DNA of 17,467 nucleotides from the IMG/VR virus record IMGVR_UViG_2585427741_000008, one strand, 5' to 3'. Each line of letters starts with the position of its first letter. Position 1 is the first letter of the stretch. Under the pieces are notes generated by a model. The model was not told the DNA's origin. It made no database searches and saw only the letters and a list, made by a program, of their open reading frames with translations. Shown one piece after another: positions 7,710-15,980 of the stretch. This stretch comes from a virus. Its lineage: Duplodnaviria; Heunggongvirae; Uroviricota; Caudoviricetes. A program made the position numbers and the translations under genes.

Positions 7710-8567
7710 GTGTTAAATCCTATCAGCTTATTTTCAGTAAAATTAACCTGCTACCACAATGATAGAGAAATTATGGTAGGAACAGGTTTTCTTTATAGCC
7801 ATGAAGATTATAGAGACCCAATCTTAATAACAAACTACCATGTCCTAACCTGTAGAGAACCCAAAAACCCAGCATCCTTAATGAACAATATAGGATCCTC
7901 ACCAAATAAAATAAAATGTCACATTTGGGCTCCGAATGGCTCGTCCTGCCATACATTTTATATCAATATTGATGAACACACGGAATGGTTAGAACATCCC
8001 TTAAGGGCTAATGGGGTGGATATTGTTGGCATTCCCATAATCTTTACTAGCGATGTAGGCTATACAACACAAAACGATATTAACAACACCGACACAATTC
8101 CACTTCACGTTGCATCAGACTTATCAATCGTGGGTTATCCCCTTGGTTTATCTGTAAATGAGCATTTACCAATTTGGAAAAATGGAGTGATTGCCAGTGA
8201 ACCAGACGTTAAAATATCCGGCCTTGACTATTTCTATATTGATGCAACAACCAAGGAAGGCATGTCTGGATCTCCTGTATTTTCTCATGAATATACTACT
8301 CAAATTATAGTTTCACCAGAAGTGCATGCTTTATATCAGCGTCGCCAGCGAGGCGAACTAGATGCTTTGCAATTTATCTCTTCAATACCATCTGAGTCAC
8401 TAAACAACACCATTCAAGTAAAAAAATTCAAATTAATTGGTATTTATTCTGGACGAGTGACAGTAGGAACATCTATGCCAGATATAGGTATAGTTTGGAA
8501 GCTTAGTCTAATTGAGGAAATGCTTTCGTCCAAAAATTTGGTCAAATCAGAATATCCACCTTACTAA
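7710..8567 (+). CDS. Trypsin-like (S1/Trypsin_2-type) serine protease with an ~85-aa C-terminal extension of unknown function; AT-rich cargo gene
   Basis: 285-aa ORF with a GTG start at 7710 preceded by AGGAGG (7700-7705). Putative triad His44 (GTGFLYS...ILITNYHVL, codon 7839-7841), Asp104 (NGVDIVGI) and Ser186 (GMSGSPVF, codon 8265-8267). About 33% GC in a sampled 60-nt stretch versus about 47% in a sampled flank. Opposite strand to all flanking phage genes. Confidence 0.7.
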   Translation: MLNPISLFSVKLTCYHNDREIMVGTGFLYSHEDYRDPILITNYHVLTCREPKNPASLMNNIGSSPNKIKCHIWAPNGSSCHTFYINIDEHTEWLEHPLRANGVDIVGIPIIFTSDVGYTTQNDINNTDTIPLHVASDLSIVGYPLGLSVNEHLPIWKNGVIASEPDVKISGLDYFYIDATTKEGMSGSPVFSHEYTTQIIVSPEVHALYQRRQRGELDALQFISSIPSESLNNTIQVKKFKLIGIYSGRVTVGTSMPDIGIVWKLSLIEEMLSSKNLVKSEYPPY

Positions 8568-10077: not shown

Positions 10078-10099
10078 AAACCCGCTCGACGGCGGGTTT
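10078..10099 (-). terminator. Intrinsic-terminator-like hairpin in the late leader upstream of the holin (tR-prime-like candidate)
   Basis: 8-bp stem AAACCCGC / GCGGGTTT with a 6-nt loop. On the minus transcript it is followed by UUUUGUCGUUUCU (complement of 10064-10077). Located about 150 nt upstream of the holin start. Confidence 0.4.
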
Positions 10100-10204: not shown

Positions 10205-11995
10205 ATGAGCACAGAATTAAAACTAAAGAAAATTATGGCATCGTCTAAAATTGAGCCATTTATTAGACATATTCGTTTTCCTTTTTTTAAAAACCTTGCA
10301 GAGGGTAGCAAGATTGATTTTGAGTATCCAATTACAGCATTAGTTGGTCAAAACGGAACCAATAAAAGTTCTGTTTTAAGAGCCCTATTCGGTTCTCCAA
10401 ACAACTATTCTCTGGGTAGCTTATGGTTTTCTACAGATGTAGATGAGATTAAAGATGGTGGTCGTTCTAGATTTATTTATGGATATTATGACAAAGCTAC
10501 TGATTCAATTGTTGAAGTAATTAAAACTCGAATCTCTAAAGAAAATGATCCTGATTACTGGGAACCATCCAGACCATTAAAATCCGACAACATGGCTCCA
10601 ATGCCTAGTACAAAAATCTCAACCAATCAACTAAGGACTAGGTGGAAAGCTATTGACAAAAATGTAATATATTTAGATTTCAGAGCAACTATCAGTGCAT
10701 TTGATAAGTTCTTTTATCACTCTGATTTTCATACATACCCTAAGAAAGATTATCTTAGAAAACGCAGTCAGATGCTAAAAGACATTATAGATAACGATCT
10801 TAAAAAATATCAACCTCATAAAGGAAAAAAAGACAAGCTATTTGTTAACACTTTATTAGAAAAAAGTAAGGTAGAGGCAATCAGCAAGATTTTAGGTCGC
10901 AAATACACAAGCATCCGCCTTATTGAACATAGCTTATTCACTAATGACAAAGCTCCCACAATTATTCTTCAATCAGAAAACTTAAAATATTCTGAAGCTT
11001 TCGCAGGCAGTGGGGAATTTGCTGTATCTATATTAGTGCATAAACTAATGGATAGCCCTGATGCATCTTTAATTCTGCTAGATGAACCTGAAGTATCACT
11101 TCACCCTTCTGCTCAATGTCAATTGATGGAATTTTTATCAGAACAAGCACTTAAAAAGAAACATCAAATTGTCATATCCACACATTCATCAACAATAGTA
11201 AAAGACTTGCCTAAAAATGCCATAAAATTATTCTGTCTGAATGATAAAATAGGAAAGGTTGATGTTCTTCAAAATGTCAGCCCAGAAGAATCTTTCTTTA
11301 TTCTTGGTGAACGCATTGATAAAAGAACCGTTATTGTAGAAGATCGGTTAGCGAAGAGGTTTGTAGAAAAGGCGCTTAAAGCGGGTGGTGAAGCATTATT
11401 AAACTCCTTCGAAGTAAAACATGTTCCTGGAGGAGCGGGAAGTATTCTTCAAACTTTGGCTGTGCCTTTATGTGTTGCCAATGTTAAAAACGTTATTTTC
11501 TTATTAGATGGTGACCAATCGAGAACTGATGATTATCCAACTTCTGATTCCATACCAGAAAATCAAAACACAAACCTTCAAAACATCATAAAAGAAATAA
11601 CCAATCAAGATATAAAATTTAGTTGTGATGGTTCTAATGGCTCATCAAATAACAATCAAAAATACAAAATGCAAAGAAATTTTATCGATTTCATCCACGA
11701 TAAAATTGCTTTTCTTCCTGTTTATACTCCTGAAGCATTTCTTATTGAGAATGTTCATGGTGATTATAAAGAATATAAAGATCAAATCCCCAAAAACATT
11801 CAAGATGCTAAAGAAATCACCAAAGAACTTTGTAAGTTAGACACAGGGTTGGAAAACGTTACCAGTGACGATATCTTTGAAACACAAATCAGAATTCTTA
11901 ATAAAATACCAAATAATCATGAAGTGTTAACAAAAACTCGAGAGTTGCTGCAAATCTTTTTAGATAATGATACTATCAGACCAAGAGTGAGGTAG
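10205..11995 (+). CDS. ABC-type (AAA_15/AAA_21-like) ATPase with C-terminal TOPRIM-like putative nuclease domain (OLD/PARIS-like architecture)
   Basis: 596-aa ORF. P-loop-like ITALVGQNGTNKSSVL (aa 43-58, nt 10346-10369), Walker B/D-loop ASLILLDEPEVSLHPSAQ (D293 E294, nt 11081-11086), and in the C-terminal half an acidic pair VIVEDR (E379) plus a DxD motif FLLDGDQ (D435-G-D437, nt 11507-11515), as expected for a TOPRIM fold. AT-rich; stop is 3 nt before the methyltransferase start. Confidence 0.6.
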   Translation: MSTELKLKKIMASSKIEPFIRHIRFPFFKNLAEGSKIDFEYPITALVGQNGTNKSSVLRALFGSPNNYSLGSLWFSTDVDEIKDGGRSRFIYGYYDKATDSIVEVIKTRISKENDPDYWEPSRPLKSDNMAPMPSTKISTNQLRTRWKAIDKNVIYLDFRATISAFDKFFYHSDFHTYPKKDYLRKRSQMLKDIIDNDLKKYQPHKGKKDKLFVNTLLEKSKVEAISKILGRKYTSIRLIEHSLFTNDKAPTIILQSENLKYSEAFAGSGEFAVSILVHKLMDSPDASLILLDEPEVSLHPSAQCQLMEFLSEQALKKKHQIVISTHSSTIVKDLPKNAIKLFCLNDKIGKVDVLQNVSPEESFFILGERIDKRTVIVEDRLAKRFVEKALKAGGEALLNSFEVKHVPGGAGSILQTLAVPLCVANVKNVIFLLDGDQSRTDDYPTSDSIPENQNTNLQNIIKEITNQDIKFSCDGSNGSSNNNQKYKMQRNFIDFIHDKIAFLPVYTPEAFLIENVHGDYKEYKDQIPKNIQDAKEITKELCKLDTGLENVTSDDIFETQIRILNKIPNNHEVLTKTRELLQIFLDNDTIRPRVR

Positions 11996-11998
11996 ATA

Positions 11999-13039
11999 AT
12001 GGCTAAAAAGATACACGTTTACGATTTCTTTTCCGGCTGCGGCGGAACCAGTGTAGGCCTAAAAGCGGTGGGAATGGAAATTATTTTCGGTTTAGATATT
12101 GATCTAGACTCCGCTAACACCTTTAAAATGAATAATCCATTTGCACATTTTATCAATGGTGATATCAAAGATACACACGTTGAGGAAATTAAGCATCTGG
12201 TTTGTGCGTCAACACAAAGCAAAGCTCTAACCCTATTTTGTGGTTGTGCTCCATGTCAACCATTCTCGAAACAAAATAAAATACGGAACGAGGATGATCC
12301 GAGAAAAGATCTGCTTACTGAGTTTGCACGGTTTGTCTCTTATTATACGCCAGACTTTGTACTGGTAGAGAATGTACCAGGAATCCAAAATGTCGATATT
12401 AACAATGGAAATTTCCAGAAATTTCTTGAGGTTTTAGCACATCATAACTACAACGTTGATTTTGGTGTGATTCCTGCGTTGTGGTTCGGGGTTCCTCAAA
12501 CACGTGAACGTTTTGTTTTACTGGCGTCAAAACACACGAATATTAAGCTTCCATCACAAACTCATGATGGATTAAAAACTCCGTATGCAACTGTCAGAGA
12601 CTGGATCGGCGGATTACCTCCTATTGCTGCCGGTGAAACTCATAAAGATGTTATGGATCATACAGCAGCCAAACTATCTGATCTAAATATTAAACGTATT
12701 AAAGCGACTCCTGAAGGAAAAGGTAGAGAATCTTGGCCTGAAGAACTTATACTAAAATGCCATAAAAAATATAAAGGGCATACTGATGTTTATGGACGGC
12801 TTTCTTGGGACAAACCAGCAAGTGGATTAACAACTAGATGTATAAGCTATTCGAATGGACGTTTCGGACATCCAGAGCAAGATAGGGCTATTTCTGTTAG
12901 AGAGGCTGCGTTATTACAGACTTTCCCATTAGACTATTCCTTCACAGGCTCTTTAGTCTCGAAAGCCAAACAGATAGGGAATGCAGTCCCTCCCAAGATG
13001 GCTGAAGCTCTTGGAAGGGCTATCATCGCATCACTTTAA
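11999..13039 (+). CDS. DNA (cytosine-5)-methyltransferase
   Basis: 346-aa ORF with the canonical m5C-MTase motif order: I FSGCGG (nt 12029-12046), IV GCAPCQPFS (PCQ at 12251-12259), VI LVENVPGI (ENV at 12367-12375), VIII QTRERFVL (12497-12511) and X IGNAVPP near the C-terminus, with a variable region between VIII and X. Confidence 0.9.
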   Translation: MAKKIHVYDFFSGCGGTSVGLKAVGMEIIFGLDIDLDSANTFKMNNPFAHFINGDIKDTHVEEIKHLVCASTQSKALTLFCGCAPCQPFSKQNKIRNEDDPRKDLLTEFARFVSYYTPDFVLVENVPGIQNVDINNGNFQKFLEVLAHHNYNVDFGVIPALWFGVPQTRERFVLLASKHTNIKLPSQTHDGLKTPYATVRDWIGGLPPIAAGETHKDVMDHTAAKLSDLNIKRIKATPEGKGRESWPEELILKCHKKYKGHTDVYGRLSWDKPASGLTTRCISYSNGRFGHPEQDRAISVREAALLQTFPLDYSFTGSLVSKAKQIGNAVPPKMAEALGRAIIASL

Positions 13040-13041
13040 AA

Positions 13042-13063
13042 GCGGAGCCCTAGAGGGCTTCGC
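13042..13063. terminator. Hairpin at the convergent junction of the methyltransferase and Q genes
   Basis: 9-bp stem GCGGAGCCC / GGGCTTCGC (one G-U wobble) with loop TAGA. It overlaps the Q stop codon. The minus transcript has UUUUAAAG after the stem; the plus strand has no U-tract. Confidence 0.4.
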
Positions 13064-13406
13064 CTAACAATAATAGAATACCTGATATAAACCCTATAGC
13101 TCCCTGAAGCTCTTTTCTAATTGCTCCATCAGAGCATTTTCTTTTCTTAGCAATGGTGCGTAATGAGATACCAATCACAAAATGAGCAATGATCAGCTCA
13201 TATTCTTCTGGTTTATACTTCCGCAGGCGGGCGACACAGCCATCAATCATGATGCCTTCATCATCATCGCACTGAATCCGGGACTTTCTGCCATGAGGTA
13301 AAAGCCCCTTGAAGCCAGCGGCTACCGGTTGCCAATCCACACCACTGTTCTCTGCCGCAGCCCACGCTCCCCAACGGTCTAATACTTCATACATATCACA
13401 CATCAA
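13050..13406 (-). CDS. Phage antitermination protein Q (small Q family, not lambda Q)
   Basis: 118-aa ORF. Pattern LDRWGAWAA...W...AAGFKGL...RIQCDDDEGIMIDGCVARL...SDG...L resembles the small enterobacterial Q-antiterminator family as I recall it. Sits last in the early/regulatory block, before the late genes. Confidence 0.65.
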   Translation of the reverse strand: MMCDMYEVLDRWGAWAAAENSGVDWQPVAAGFKGLLPHGRKSRIQCDDDEGIMIDGCVARLRKYKPEEYELIIAHFVIGISLRTIAKKRKCSDGAIRKELQGAIGFISGILLLLGEAL

Positions 13407-15234: not shown

Positions 15235-15624
15235 TCAGGCGGCTGCACCCGCCGTTTTCTCGTACTTACTGATAGTGATCTCGACCTTCCCTTCCGGGAT
15301 AACCGGTCCCCACTCCACCAGCATTCTTTTCACCTGACTGTCGTCTTCCCACACACCCGCGTGGGTCAGGGCGTCAAACAGCGCCTTGTTATAGTTGTCC
15401 AGATCGCGGATCCGGTTATCCGGAGGAAACAACACGATCTCCACTGAAGCAGGTGCCGACGTTGGTTTTGGCAGACGACGTAACTGCTCAACTATTGCTG
15501 CACACGCCGCGCTCTGAAATTTTCGCCCCGCCGCGCTTATCAGGCTCTTACCAGCAAATGCCCCTTTGTTGGGGTGTCGCCAGTACGTGTTCACGCTGGG
15601 CGGGAAAGGAAGGATCAACTTCAT
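15235..15624 (-). CDS. rusA: Holliday junction resolvase RusA
   Basis: 129-aa ORF with RusA hallmarks: LPFPPSVNTYW N-terminus, RDLDNYNKALFDALTHAGVWEDDSQV catalytic region, and C-terminal EITISKYE. Confidence 0.85.
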   Translation of the reverse strand: MKLILPFPPSVNTYWRHPNKGAFAGKSLISAAGRKFQSAACAAIVEQLRRLPKPTSAPASVEIVLFPPDNRIRDLDNYNKALFDALTHAGVWEDDSQVKRMLVEWGPVIPEGKVEITISKYEKTAGAAA

Positions 15625-15980
15625 ACTTTCAGGCCCCTCTCATGTAACCAGTGGGCTGCACGCAGCCTGGCGTTTTCCTCACCGGCAAGCAGTGAGCGGA
15701 TAATCCCGACCGCCTCGCTGTCGTCGTCCTTCACCGCGGTATGAAGCGTTATCCCCCGGGCCACGCCACGCTTTATCGTGATGACGCCTTTTTTCTCCAG
15801 TGCGCGAAGATGCTCCACCGCTGCATTCACCGAACGATATCCCAGCATGGTTGCCACCTCCTGATTGGTTGGCGGGAAGCCACGTTCTTTCTGGTAAGAA
15901 ATCAGCATATCCAGCACCTGCTGCTGGCATTGAGTTAACGTCGTCATTACGCCCCCACGTAATTCCCTGACAGATACCAC
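15621..15980 (-). CDS. Winged-helix DNA-binding protein (LexA N-terminal-domain-like)
   Basis: 119-aa ORF. LTQCQQQVLDMLISYQKERGFPPTNQEVATMLGYRSVNAAVEHLRALEKKGVI resembles the LexA-type winged HTH. Start overlaps the RusA gene stop by 4 nt. Confidence 0.5.
   Translation of the reverse strand: MVSVRELRGGVMTTLTQCQQQVLDMLISYQKERGFPPTNQEVATMLGYRSVNAAVEHLRALEKKGVITIKRGVARGITLHTAVKDDDSEAVGIIRSLLAGEENARLRAAHWLHERGLKV

What the first reader, a model, noticed from the sequence alone, without database searches (positions are those of the whole stretch)
10346..10369. Non-canonical P-loop in the ATPase: GQNGTNKS with Asn at the conserved second glycine
Seen in sequence: codons ggt caa aac gga acc aat aaa agt encode G48-Q-N-G-T-N53-K54-S55. 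The canonical Walker A is GxxxxGK[ST], and ABC/OLD-type ATPases usually read GxNGxGKS; here the second invariant Gly is Asn. The Walker B/D-loop (LLDEPEVSLHP) is intact. This could mean altered nucleotide binding or hydrolysis, for example a nucleotide-binding switch rather than a turnover ATPase, or simply a tolerated lineage variant.
Basis: partly seen in the sequence, partly recalled or inferred. Interest (0 to 1): 0.4.

Follow-up and report, generated by a model that had tools for sequence, protein, structure and literature searches.

The report
Asn-type P-loop in methylase-linked OLD nuclease
The odd ATP-binding motif is real and is not an error: it is a conserved, selected variant that marks a large branch of an OLD-type ATP-dependent nuclease family almost always inherited together with a DNA cytosine methylase, a pairing that looks like an undescribed kind of restriction-modification system carried here by an E. 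coli prophage.

Summary
Codons 10346-10369 encode G48-Q-N-G-T-N53-K54-S55 in a 596-aa ORF (10205-11995, +).

- **Protein family:** it is an OLD-family nuclease, an ABC ATPase joined to a Toprim domain. The best fold match is Thermus OLD, 6P74.
- **Conservation of Asn53:** it is present in all 116 N-terminus-bearing homologues of the first search (down to 43% identity). It is invariant in a 48-sequence alignment and is encoded equally by AAT and AAC.
- **Wider family:** among 207 full-length members the position is Asn 148, Gly 52, Ser 5, Cys 1, His 1, with only a handful of switches on the tree. Distant outgroups and solved relatives have Gly. The four Ser members examined use AGY, the one-step intermediate between AAY and GGY.
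- **Other catalytic motifs:** all remaining ATPase and Toprim motifs are invariant in both branches.

The Asn is therefore a fixed, tolerated replacement at the start of helix α1 and not an inactivation. Whether it changes ATP turnover cannot be told from sequence.

The larger result is that this family sits next to a C5 cytosine methylase in 71 of 80 species-representative loci and co-diverges with it. That points to a restriction-modification-like module, carried here as a low-GC insert between phage Q and the lysis genes.

The parts
10205..11995 (+). OLD-family nuclease gene (596 aa): N-terminal ABC ATPase and C-terminal Toprim domain
   Evidence: Pfam AAA_15 1.5e-15 and AAA_21 2.2e-13. PADLOC HEC-04 1.9e-36 and ATPase-Toprim_I-B 1.1e-24. 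AF2 model mean pLDDT 88.3. Foldseek best hits 6p74 OLD at 4.7e-14 and GajA 8x5i at 8e-13.
10346..10369 (+). Walker A / P-loop GQNGTNKS (aa 48-55)
   Evidence: G48, N50, G51 and K54 are invariant in 207 family members.
10361..10363 (+). Asn53 codon (AAT) at the position of the second Walker A glycine; last loop residue before helix α1
   Evidence: DSSP of the model gives strand 43-48, loop 49-53 and helix 54-62. Invariant in alignment A1.
10988..11017 (+). ABC signature region YSEAFAGSGE (aa 262-271)
   Evidence: Y262, E264, A265, A267, G268, G270 and E271 are invariant across both branches.
11069..11107 (+). Walker B and D-loop LILLDEPEVSLHP (aa 289-301), including the presumed catalytic E294
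   Evidence: D293, E294, S298 and P301 are invariant. The segment aligns to the Thermus OLD Walker B.
11177..11188 (+). H-loop STHS (aa 325-328), H327
   Evidence: H327 is invariant in both branches.
11330..11344 (+). Toprim glutamate motif VIVED (aa 376-380), E379
   Evidence: E379 and D380 are invariant. This corresponds to the Toprim metal site mutated in HEC-04.
11501..11518 (+). Toprim DxD motif LLDGDQ (aa 433-438), D435 and D437
   Evidence: D435, G436 and D437 are invariant.
11999..13039 (+). C5 DNA cytosine methyltransferase gene (346 aa), starting 4 bp after the nuclease stop
   Evidence: PF00145 1.1e-59. TIGR00675 dcm 1.5e-42. Motifs FSGCGG, PCQ, ENV, QTRER and GNAV are all present.
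10078..10099 (-). Terminator-like hairpin on the phage late-gene strand, between the cassette and the holin gene. This is flanking context and not part of the module.

Best explanation
Asn53 is a fixed, selected replacement of the second Walker A glycine. It characterises one large branch of a single family of OLD-type nucleases (ABC ATPase plus Toprim).

The residue is the last loop position before helix α1, where the P-loop uses backbone amides to hold the β-phosphate. Only small or polar residues are seen there (Asn, Gly, Ser, rarely Cys or His). That set matches the residues I recall as favoured at a helix N-terminus or in a turn, which is recalled knowledge and not tested here. The Asn is therefore most likely structurally tolerated and leaves a working nucleotide site. 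The Walker A Lys, catalytic Glu, signature motif, D-loop, H-loop and the Toprim metal ligands are all invariant. The Asn side chain probably tunes nucleotide affinity or turnover quantitatively and does not abolish either; this step is inferred.

The protein works together with the methylase encoded immediately downstream, as a two-gene unit resembling restriction-modification. The methylase marks the host and prophage DNA. The ATP-controlled Toprim nuclease attacks DNA that lacks the mark. This last step is inferred from gene context only.

In this window the unit is a low-GC insert on the opposite strand to the phage genes, between antiterminator Q and the lysis cassette. That placement would allow it to be expressed in the lysogen.
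For: **Conservation**
- Asn in 116 of 116 close homologues and invariant in 48 sequences at 43-84% identity.
- Synonymous AAT and AAC, 16 each.
- Family-wide, among 207 members: Asn 148, Gly 52, Ser 5, Cys 1, His 1.

**Few switches**
- 9 Fitch changes against about 53 when states are shuffled, on 207 sequences.
- 5-14 changes (median 10) over bootstraps against about 28 shuffled, on a 70-sequence outgroup-rooted tree.

**Gly is ancestral**
- The root state is Gly in 64 of 100 bootstraps and never Asn alone.
- Distant viral relatives L164, L166 and L168-L174 have Gly, as do Thermus OLD and Rad50.

**Mutational path**
- All four Ser members examined use AGY.
- Asp was not seen at this position in any set scored.

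**Intact machinery**
- The same invariant ATPase and Toprim residues occur in both branches.

**Position in the fold**
- The DSSP string puts the start of the helix at K54.

**Walker A matters in relatives**
- K62A abolishes HEC-04 defence.
- The Vibrio OLD Walker A K48 is required for defence.

**Methylase unit**
- A C5 methylase lies within 4 kb in 71 of 80 species-representative loci and is adjacent in 52.
- Among family members in viral contigs, 62 of 68 have an adjacent methylase.
- Nuclease and methylase identities co-vary: Spearman 0.86 within the Asn type, and 0 of 500 Mantel permutations reach the overall value.
- Classic R-M accessories occur in some loci: Vsr (L009 and L091) and an HTH gene upstream of the nuclease with a divergent methylase (L010).
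- The same pair occurs in unrelated chromosomal and prophage sites.
- GC content is 0.36, against 0.53-0.55 in the flanks.
Against: - No biochemistry exists for any member of this family.
- I could not read model coordinates, so the backbone angles and side-chain contacts of Asn53 are unverified.
- Intact motifs do not prove hydrolysis. The OLD review tabulates 'No' for ATP hydrolysis by Bacillus cereus GajA.
- Strong retention of Asn, with rare reversion to Gly, could mean a specific side-chain role and not mere tolerance.
- Against the restriction-modification reading: characterised OLD nucleases cut DNA non-specifically, and no DNA-reading domain was identified.
- Seven Bacteroidota loci already have a complete HpaII-type R and M next to the nuclease.
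- Seven loci with enough flank have no C5 methylase within 4 kb.
- No database source calls the protein a restriction enzyme.
Confidence: 0.6

Rival explanations
1. The Asn converts the site into a nucleotide sensor: it binds ATP or another nucleotide but hardly turns it over. The nuclease would then be gated by nucleotide occupancy, as has been proposed for Gabija GajA.
For: - The OLD review tabulates 'No' for ATP hydrolysis by Bacillus cereus GajA (PMC10568477), so a non-hydrolysing head has a precedent in the family.
- Thermus and Vibrio OLD cut DNA in vitro without needing ATP, yet need the Walker A Lys in vivo.
- Asn is strongly retained: AAT and AAC 16 each, with few reversions. This fits a specific role for the side chain.
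Against: - E294, H327, the signature motif and the D-loop are as invariant in the Asn branch as in the Gly branch. Degenerate ABC sites usually lose these residues; that is my own knowledge, not tested here.
- The Asn, Ser and Gly states interconvert within one orthologous family in the same gene context. This argues for functional equivalence.
Confidence: 0.22
2. The Asn is a sequencing error, or an inactivating mutation in a decaying prophage gene.
For: None found. The only basis is the departure from the GxxxxGK[ST] consensus.
Against: - The identical protein is recorded on 275 contigs.
- Asn is present in 116 of 116 close homologues and 148 of 207 family members from many phyla.
- The ORF is full length and all other motifs are intact.
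Confidence: 0.01
3. The nuclease is not the restriction partner of the methylase. It is instead a second-line, abortive-infection type effector parked beside methylases and R-M systems and triggered by phage anti-restriction factors (as in PARIS). Alternatively, it is a repair nuclease for the T:G mismatches that 5-methylcytosine creates (like Vsr).
For: - The layout M - R.HpaII - OLD occurs in seven loci, where a restriction enzyme is already present.
- Some family members have no C5 methylase and have other partners: HEF_HK with a receiver domain, or GmrSD.
- ABC-Toprim systems such as PARIS, Gabija and P2 Old are reported to be triggered by phage anti-defence proteins.
- The association is with C5 methylases, as it is for Vsr.
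Against: - The commonest layout is a bare two-gene pair with no other nuclease, found in unrelated sites.
- Nuclease and methylase co-diverge.
- Vsr co-occurs with the nuclease in several loci, for example L009 and L091, so the nuclease is not simply a substitute for Vsr.
- The HTH gene upstream of the nuclease in L010 is the arrangement used to delay a toxic restriction gene (this interpretation is my own knowledge).
Confidence: 0.25

Closest known systems
Class 1 OLD nucleases (P2 Old; Thermus scotoductus OLD, PDB 6P74; Vibrio cholerae OLD)
   Same: One polypeptide with an N-terminal ABC ATPase and a C-terminal Toprim nuclease. 6P74 is the best sequence and fold match. P2 Old is prophage-borne, and the Walker A Lys is needed in vivo.
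   Different: Class 1 is defined as a single gene with no conserved neighbour, whereas this family has a C5 methylase neighbour in about 90% of loci. The Walker A here has Asn in place of the second Gly, where Thermus OLD has GPNGAGKT. Sequence similarity is very low: the phmmer E-value is only 9e-6 and Foldseek gives 16% identity.
Gabija GajA (OLD nuclease paired with the GajB helicase)
   Same: ABC-Toprim fold, with full-length Foldseek hits to 8x5i, 8u7i and 8sm3. It works with a partner encoded next door. The review tabulates no ATP hydrolysis for Bacillus cereus GajA, so a non-hydrolysing head has a precedent in the family.
   Different: The partner here is a methylase and not a UvrD-like helicase. 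No helicase gene lies next to the cassette in the window.
PADLOC HEC-04 (ABC ATPase-Toprim single-gene defence; bioRxiv 10.1101/2024.01.29.577857)
   Same: It is the best PADLOC match, at 1.9e-36. It is an ABC ATPase fused to Toprim, it has been shown to defend against phage, and its Walker A Lys and Toprim acidic residues are essential.
   Different: The best matched stretch covers only profile positions 155-386 of 494. HEC-04 is about 100 aa shorter and was found embedded in Hma systems, not as a pair with a C5 methylase.
Type II restriction-modification systems with a C5 methylase (for example HpaII, often with Vsr or a controller protein)
   Same: An intact C5 methylase is tightly linked to a nuclease gene and co-inherited with it. 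Vsr and an HTH gene occur in some loci. The module is mobile and low in GC.
   Different: The nuclease is an ATP-binding Toprim enzyme. The restriction nuclease folds known to me (PD-(D/E)XK, HNH, GIY-YIG, PLD, half-pipe) do not include Toprim; this list is my own knowledge. Sequence specificity is unproven. No REase model appeared among the 25 best PADLOC hits.
MCM helicase Walker A (GDPxx[AS]KS). This is recalled from my own knowledge and was not tested here.
   Same: It is a conserved, active NTPase family in which the glycine just before the Walker A lysine is replaced by a small residue (Ala or Ser).
   Different: It belongs to a different P-loop class (AAA+, not ABC), and the replacing residue is different. 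No Asn precedent was found in the papers searched or among the PDB P-loop matches shown.

Membership tests
OLD-family nucleases (ABC ATPase + Toprim) | N-terminal ABC-type ATPase with Walker A, signature, Walker B, D-loop and H-loop | tested here: met
   AAA_15, AAA_21 and SMC_N hits. The motifs are located and invariant. The one departure is Asn at the second Walker A Gly.
OLD-family nucleases (ABC ATPase + Toprim) | C-terminal Toprim domain with a conserved Glu and a DxD metal-binding motif | tested here: met
   E379 and D435-G-D437 are invariant. The PADLOC ATPase-Toprim_I-B profile covers aa 42-484.
OLD-family nucleases (ABC ATPase + Toprim) | Overall fold similar to solved OLD proteins | tested here: met
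   Foldseek best hit 6p74 at E 4.7e-14 over 609 columns, followed by GajA structures. TM-scores are low (0.32-0.36), as expected when domain orientations differ.
OLD-family nucleases (ABC ATPase + Toprim) | ATP-binding or ATPase activity and metal-dependent DNA cleavage | not testable with these tools
   This needs purified protein.
Class 1 OLD | Single gene with no conserved neighbouring partner | tested here: not met
   A C5 methylase lies within 4 kb in 71 of 80 loci and is adjacent in 52. The definition is taken from PMC10568477.
Class 2 OLD / Gabija GajA | Adjacent UvrD/PcrA-like helicase (GajB) | tested here: not met
   The window neighbours are holin, methylase and Q. Among the neighbour proteins that I scanned with Pfam, only L062 had a UvrD-type helicase, and it lies on the opposite strand.
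Retron-associated OLD (Class 3/4) | [quoted passage not shown] | tested here: not met
   No reverse transcriptase is annotated in the 20 kb around the identical cassette in E. coli C4. The non-coding RNA was not searched for.
PADLOC HEC-04 | Full-length match to the HEC-04 profile | tested here: inconclusive
   E 1.9e-36, but the best stretch covers only profile positions 155-386 of 494, in two stretches.
Canonical P-loop (Walker A GxxxxGK[ST]; PROSITE PS00017 as I recall it) | Gly immediately before the Lys | tested here: not met
   The motif GQNGTNKS has Asn at that position.
Restriction-modification system | Catalytically competent DNA methyltransferase | tested here: met
   PF00145 1.1e-59. 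Motifs I (FSGCGG), IV (PCQ), VI (ENV), VIII (QTRER) and X (GNAV) are present. Competence is judged from sequence only.
Restriction-modification system | Nuclease gene linked to and co-inherited with the methylase | tested here: met
Restriction-modification system | Cleavage of unmodified DNA that is blocked by the cognate methylation | not testable with these tools
   This needs in vivo and in vitro assays.

The most novel reading that the evidence does not exclude
Methylase-linked OLD nucleases are an unrecognised class of OLD proteins. They would act as the ATP-dependent restriction component of C5-methylase R-M systems, which would add Toprim to the nuclease folds used for restriction. The Asn-type P-loop would mark the branch, common on prophages, in which the ATPase cycle has been retuned.
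Probability: 0.35. Interest if true: 0.7.

Novelty: new variant of a known kind. Interest (0 to 1): 0.45.

Why it matters
**The P-loop.** The glycine before the Walker A lysine is treated as nearly inviolable, and pattern-based annotation requires it. Here a large, old and widespread branch of an ABC ATPase family keeps Asn there under purifying selection. Ser intermediates exist and a Gly-type sister branch is available as a natural control. This gives a clean system for asking what that glycine is actually needed for.

**The module.** OLD nucleases are currently classified by their neighbours: none, a helicase or a retron. A methylase-linked group is present in hundreds of species (455 confirmed stretches in the species-representative genome scan; 395 clusters at 50% identity with E ≤ 1e-30). 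I did not find it in that classification or in the papers I could search.

**If it restricts unmethylated DNA.** It would then be a new mechanistic type of restriction enzyme and a defence gene missed in E. coli prophages.

Tried and rejected
- **Sequencing error or pseudogene:** rejected.
- **Degenerate ATPase site:** not supported, because all other catalytic motifs are invariant.
- **Compensating change elsewhere in the active-site motifs:** none found. Only position 52 co-varies (Thr before Asn, Ser or Cys before Gly), together with H172 versus Phe, whose meaning is unknown.
- **Clean monophyly of the Asn branch:** not robust. The outgroup-rooted NJ tree places a small Gly group among the Asn sequences, and the exact clade has 0 of 100 bootstrap support. 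I therefore claim only 'few switches, Gly ancestral'.
- **Megablast against the phage collection:** no match.
- **Literature:** searches for an OLD-methylase pairing or an Asn Walker A found nothing relevant. The ABC ATPase classification of Krishnan et al. 2020 is not held, so I cannot exclude that this family is mentioned there.
- **Promoter scan:** no consensus promoter on the + strand upstream of the nuclease gene.
- **PDB query with the isolated P-loop segment:** no Asn-type Walker A among the matches shown.
- **Methylase specificity:** could not be inferred. The best PDB hits are the generic DNMT1 catalytic core and M.HaeIII.
Full report
**1. The observation**

Window 10346-10369 reads GGT CAA AAC GGA ACC AAT AAA AGT and encodes G48-Q-N-G-T-N53-K54-S55 of an ORF at 10205-11995 on the + strand (596 aa). 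LILLDEPEVSLHP is at residues 289-301.

**2. What the protein is**

- Pfam gives AAA_15, AAA_21 and SMC_N.
- PADLOC gives HEC-04 (1.9e-36) and ATPase-Toprim_I-B (1.1e-24, covering residues 42-484). Weaker hits follow to AriA, PtuA, GajA and Old.
- The C-terminal part carries VIVED (E379) and LLDGDQ (D435, D437), the Toprim Glu and DxD signatures.
- An AlphaFold2 model built on 48 homologues has mean pLDDT 88.3.
- The model's best Foldseek matches are the full-length Thermus scotoductus OLD nuclease 6P74 (E 4.7e-14) and then Gabija GajA structures.
- By sequence the nearest solved chain is also 6P74. Its Walker A, GPNGAGKT, aligns with GQNGTNKS, as does Rad50's GENGSGKS.

The protein is therefore an OLD-family nuclease, and Asn53 occupies the position of the second Walker A glycine.

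**3. Is the Asn conserved?**

- All 116 homologues from the first search that carry an N-terminus have Asn, down to 43% identity.
- In a 48-sequence alignment at 43-84% identity, N53 is invariant, like G48, N50, G51 and K54.
- Among distinct genes for which I have DNA, Asn is encoded by AAT 16 times and AAC 16 times. The amino acid has therefore been kept through synonymous change.
- The exact protein of the window is recorded on 275 contigs.

A sequencing error or a private inactivating mutation is excluded.

**4. How far the Asn extends**

An exhaustive search of 50%-identity representatives found 395 clusters at E ≤ 1e-30. In 207 full-length family members position 53 is Asn 148, Gly 52, Ser 5, Cys 1, His 1. 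G48, N50, G51 and K54 are invariant in all 207.

The state is strongly clustered on the tree:

- On 207 sequences there are 9 parsimony changes, against about 53 when states are shuffled.
- On a 70-sequence subsample rooted with distant Gly-type relatives there are 5-14 changes over 100 bootstraps (median 10), against about 28 shuffled.
- In that subsample the median number of Gly/non-Gly switches is 4.
- The inferred root is Gly in 64 replicates and ambiguous (Gly or Asn) in 36. It is never Asn alone.

The exact branching is not robust, and a small Gly group nests among the Asn sequences in one tree. I therefore claim only that Gly is ancestral and that the state has changed a handful of times. 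More distant relatives in viral contigs (L164, L166 and L168-L174) all have Gly.

**5. The mutational path**

Asn (AAY) to Gly (GGY) needs two transitions, through Ser (AGY) or Asp (GAY). All four Ser-type members I could look up use AGT or AGC at this position, while five of the six other Ser codons in the same motifs are TCN. Asp was not seen at this position in any set I scored. Ser is thus a viable intermediate. The position accepts Gly, Ser and Asn (rarely Cys or His) but no acidic or bulky residue was seen.

**6. What the Asn probably does**

The model's secondary structure has strand 43-48, loop 49-53 and helix 54-62, so residue 53 is the last residue before helix α1. [quoted passage not shown] From general knowledge (not tested here), Asn, Ser and Gly are among the residues most favoured at helix N-caps, and Asn is the commonest non-Gly residue with a positive phi angle. 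That would explain why these three interchange.

All other catalytic elements are as invariant in the Asn branch as in the Gly branch:

- signature AGSGE
- Walker B D293-E294
- D-loop S298 and P301
- H-loop H327
- Toprim E379, D435 and D437

The only co-varying sites are position 52 (Thr before Asn in 116 of 148; Ser or Cys before Gly in 41 of 52) and H172 versus Phe, which is unexplained.

I conclude that the site is most likely functional and that the Asn is a tolerated, then fixed, replacement with at most a quantitative effect. This last step is inference. The review I read tabulates no ATP hydrolysis for Bacillus cereus GajA. A 'sensor' reading therefore cannot be excluded from sequence.

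**7. The surroundings**

The next ORF (11999-13039, +) starts 4 bp after the nuclease stop. It is a C5 cytosine methyltransferase (PF00145 1.1e-59) with motifs I, IV (PCQ), VI, VIII and X intact.

The pair has 36% GC, against 53-55% in the flanks. It lies on the opposite strand to the phage genes, between antiterminator Q (13050-13406, -) and the holin/endolysin/Rz cassette. The window is IMG/VR UViG_2609459831_000008, an E. coli lambdoid prophage. Eight of 5426 complete E. coli genomes carry the near-identical pair (≥99% identity). Ten more carry a homologue of about 71% nucleotide identity; in the one I examined it is in the same slot and is again followed by a cytosine methylase.

**8. The pairing is general**

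- *Individual look-ups.* Four distant Asn-type homologues all have a PF00145 gene immediately downstream on the same strand. They are two chromosomal sites (Duganella and Oceanospirillum), an Arsenophonus prophage in the Q-lysis slot, and a metagenomic prophage directly after the S24-type repressor gene.
- *Species-representative scan.* This scan returned 80 loci from many phyla. A C5 methylase lies within 4 kb in 71 (27 of 30 Asn type, 44 of 50 Gly type) and is adjacent in 52. Two of the nine exceptions have almost no flank.
- *Viral contigs.* Among family members there, 62 of 68 have an adjacent methylase.
- *Co-divergence.* Pairwise identities of nuclease and adjacent methylase are correlated: Spearman 0.50 overall, 0.86 within the Asn type and 0.63 within the Gly type, with 0 of 500 Mantel permutations reaching the overall value. 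Asn-type nucleases pair with a methylase subfamily very close to the window's (median E 1e-128, against 1e-57 for the Gly type).
- *R-M accessories in some loci.* These include M-OLD-Vsr (L009), a divergent M with an HTH gene upstream of the nuclease (L010), M-Vsr-OLD (L091) and McrBC-M-OLD (L094).
- *Layouts that complicate a simple reading.* These are M - R.HpaII - OLD in seven Bacteroidota loci, M - GHKL ATPase - OLD in six loci, HEF_HK plus a receiver domain followed by OLD with no methylase in four loci, and GmrSD/UvrD neighbours in one locus.

**9. Best reading of the module**

The simplest account of a co-inherited, co-diverging, self-contained nuclease-methylase pair that moves between unrelated sites is a restriction-modification-like unit. 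In it, the methylase protects resident DNA and the ATP-controlled Toprim nuclease attacks unmarked DNA.

Its prophage positions fit expression in the lysogen and exclusion of other phages. These positions are antisense between Q and the late genes, and directly downstream of the repressor gene in two other prophages (L008 and L093).

This reading is inferred from context only. Known OLD nucleases are non-specific in vitro, and I found no DNA-reading domain. Two alternatives keep about a quarter of the probability: a second-line effector guarding methylases and R-M systems, and a Vsr-like repair role.

**10. Comparison with what is known**

The protein meets the defining features of the OLD family that I could test. 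It fails the neighbourhood definitions of Class 1 (no partner), Class 2 (helicase partner) and the retron classes. Its closest defence-database profile, HEC-04, matches only partially. HEC-04 is an ABC-Toprim defence protein whose Walker A Lys and Toprim acidic residues are essential.

No source names the protein a restriction enzyme. My literature searches found no description of an OLD-methylase pairing or of an Asn-type Walker A. One key classification paper was not available. From memory, MCM helicases are a precedent for a non-Gly residue (Ala or Ser) at this Walker A position in an active NTPase.

**11. Verdict**

It can be made more precise: the Asn is a derived, selected, branch-marking state of a methylase-linked OLD nuclease family.

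The P-loop variant by itself is a modest curiosity with a good natural experiment attached. The methylase linkage is the more interesting result.

- Novelty: new variant of a known kind.
- Interest: 0.45.

Noticed in passing
window 7710-8567 (+): A second low-GC (37%) ORF on the strand opposite to the phage genes, between the HNH/terminase genes and the lysis cassette. It is a 285-aa trypsin-like peptidase (PF13365 3.8e-9) that matches the PADLOC candidate defence family PDC-S45 (5.3e-21).
   Followed up: partly
window 10078-10099 (-): A GC-rich hairpin followed by a T run on the late-gene strand, between the cassette and the holin gene. It may be the late-operon terminator on which Q acts. 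If so, the cassette sits between Q and its target.
   Followed up: no
L008 5106-8859; L093 1682-5395: In two unrelated prophages the same nuclease-methylase pair lies directly downstream of the S24 (CI-like) repressor gene on the same strand. This resembles the position of rexAB in phage lambda.
   Followed up: partly
L032, L036, L040, L045, L046, L075, L082 (about 1 kb upstream of the nuclease gene): In Gly-type Bacteroidota relatives the order is C5 methylase, HpaII-type restriction enzyme, then OLD-type nuclease, so a full R-M system precedes the nuclease. The intervening gene was identified as PF09561 (5e-143) in L032 only. For the other six loci the layout is inferred from the same gap of about 1.06 kb.
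   Followed up: partly
L052, L055, L069, L088, L063, L022; and L047, L054, L058, L061: Two other three-gene layouts occur. One is methylase, GHKL ATPase (HATPase_c_3 + Hypoth_Ymh), then nuclease. The other is HEF_HK histidine-kinase-like protein, Response_reg_2 protein, then nuclease, with no methylase. The partner genes were confirmed by Pfam in L052, L022 and L047 only. The other loci are inferred from the same gap size or upstream ORF sizes.
   Followed up: partly
window 10718-10720 (H172 of the nuclease): His in 74% of Asn-branch members against Phe in 83% of Gly-branch members. This is among the strongest residue differences between the branches. Its location relative to the nucleotide site could not be measured.
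   Followed up: no
L001 14752-15405 compared with the window around 15600-15950: The otherwise near-identical prophage in E. coli C4 carries a phage N6-adenine methyltransferase gene between the LexA-family and PerC genes. The ORF sizes and spacing in the window suggest that this gene is absent here, as it is in strain WP4. This was not verified by alignment.
   Followed up: no
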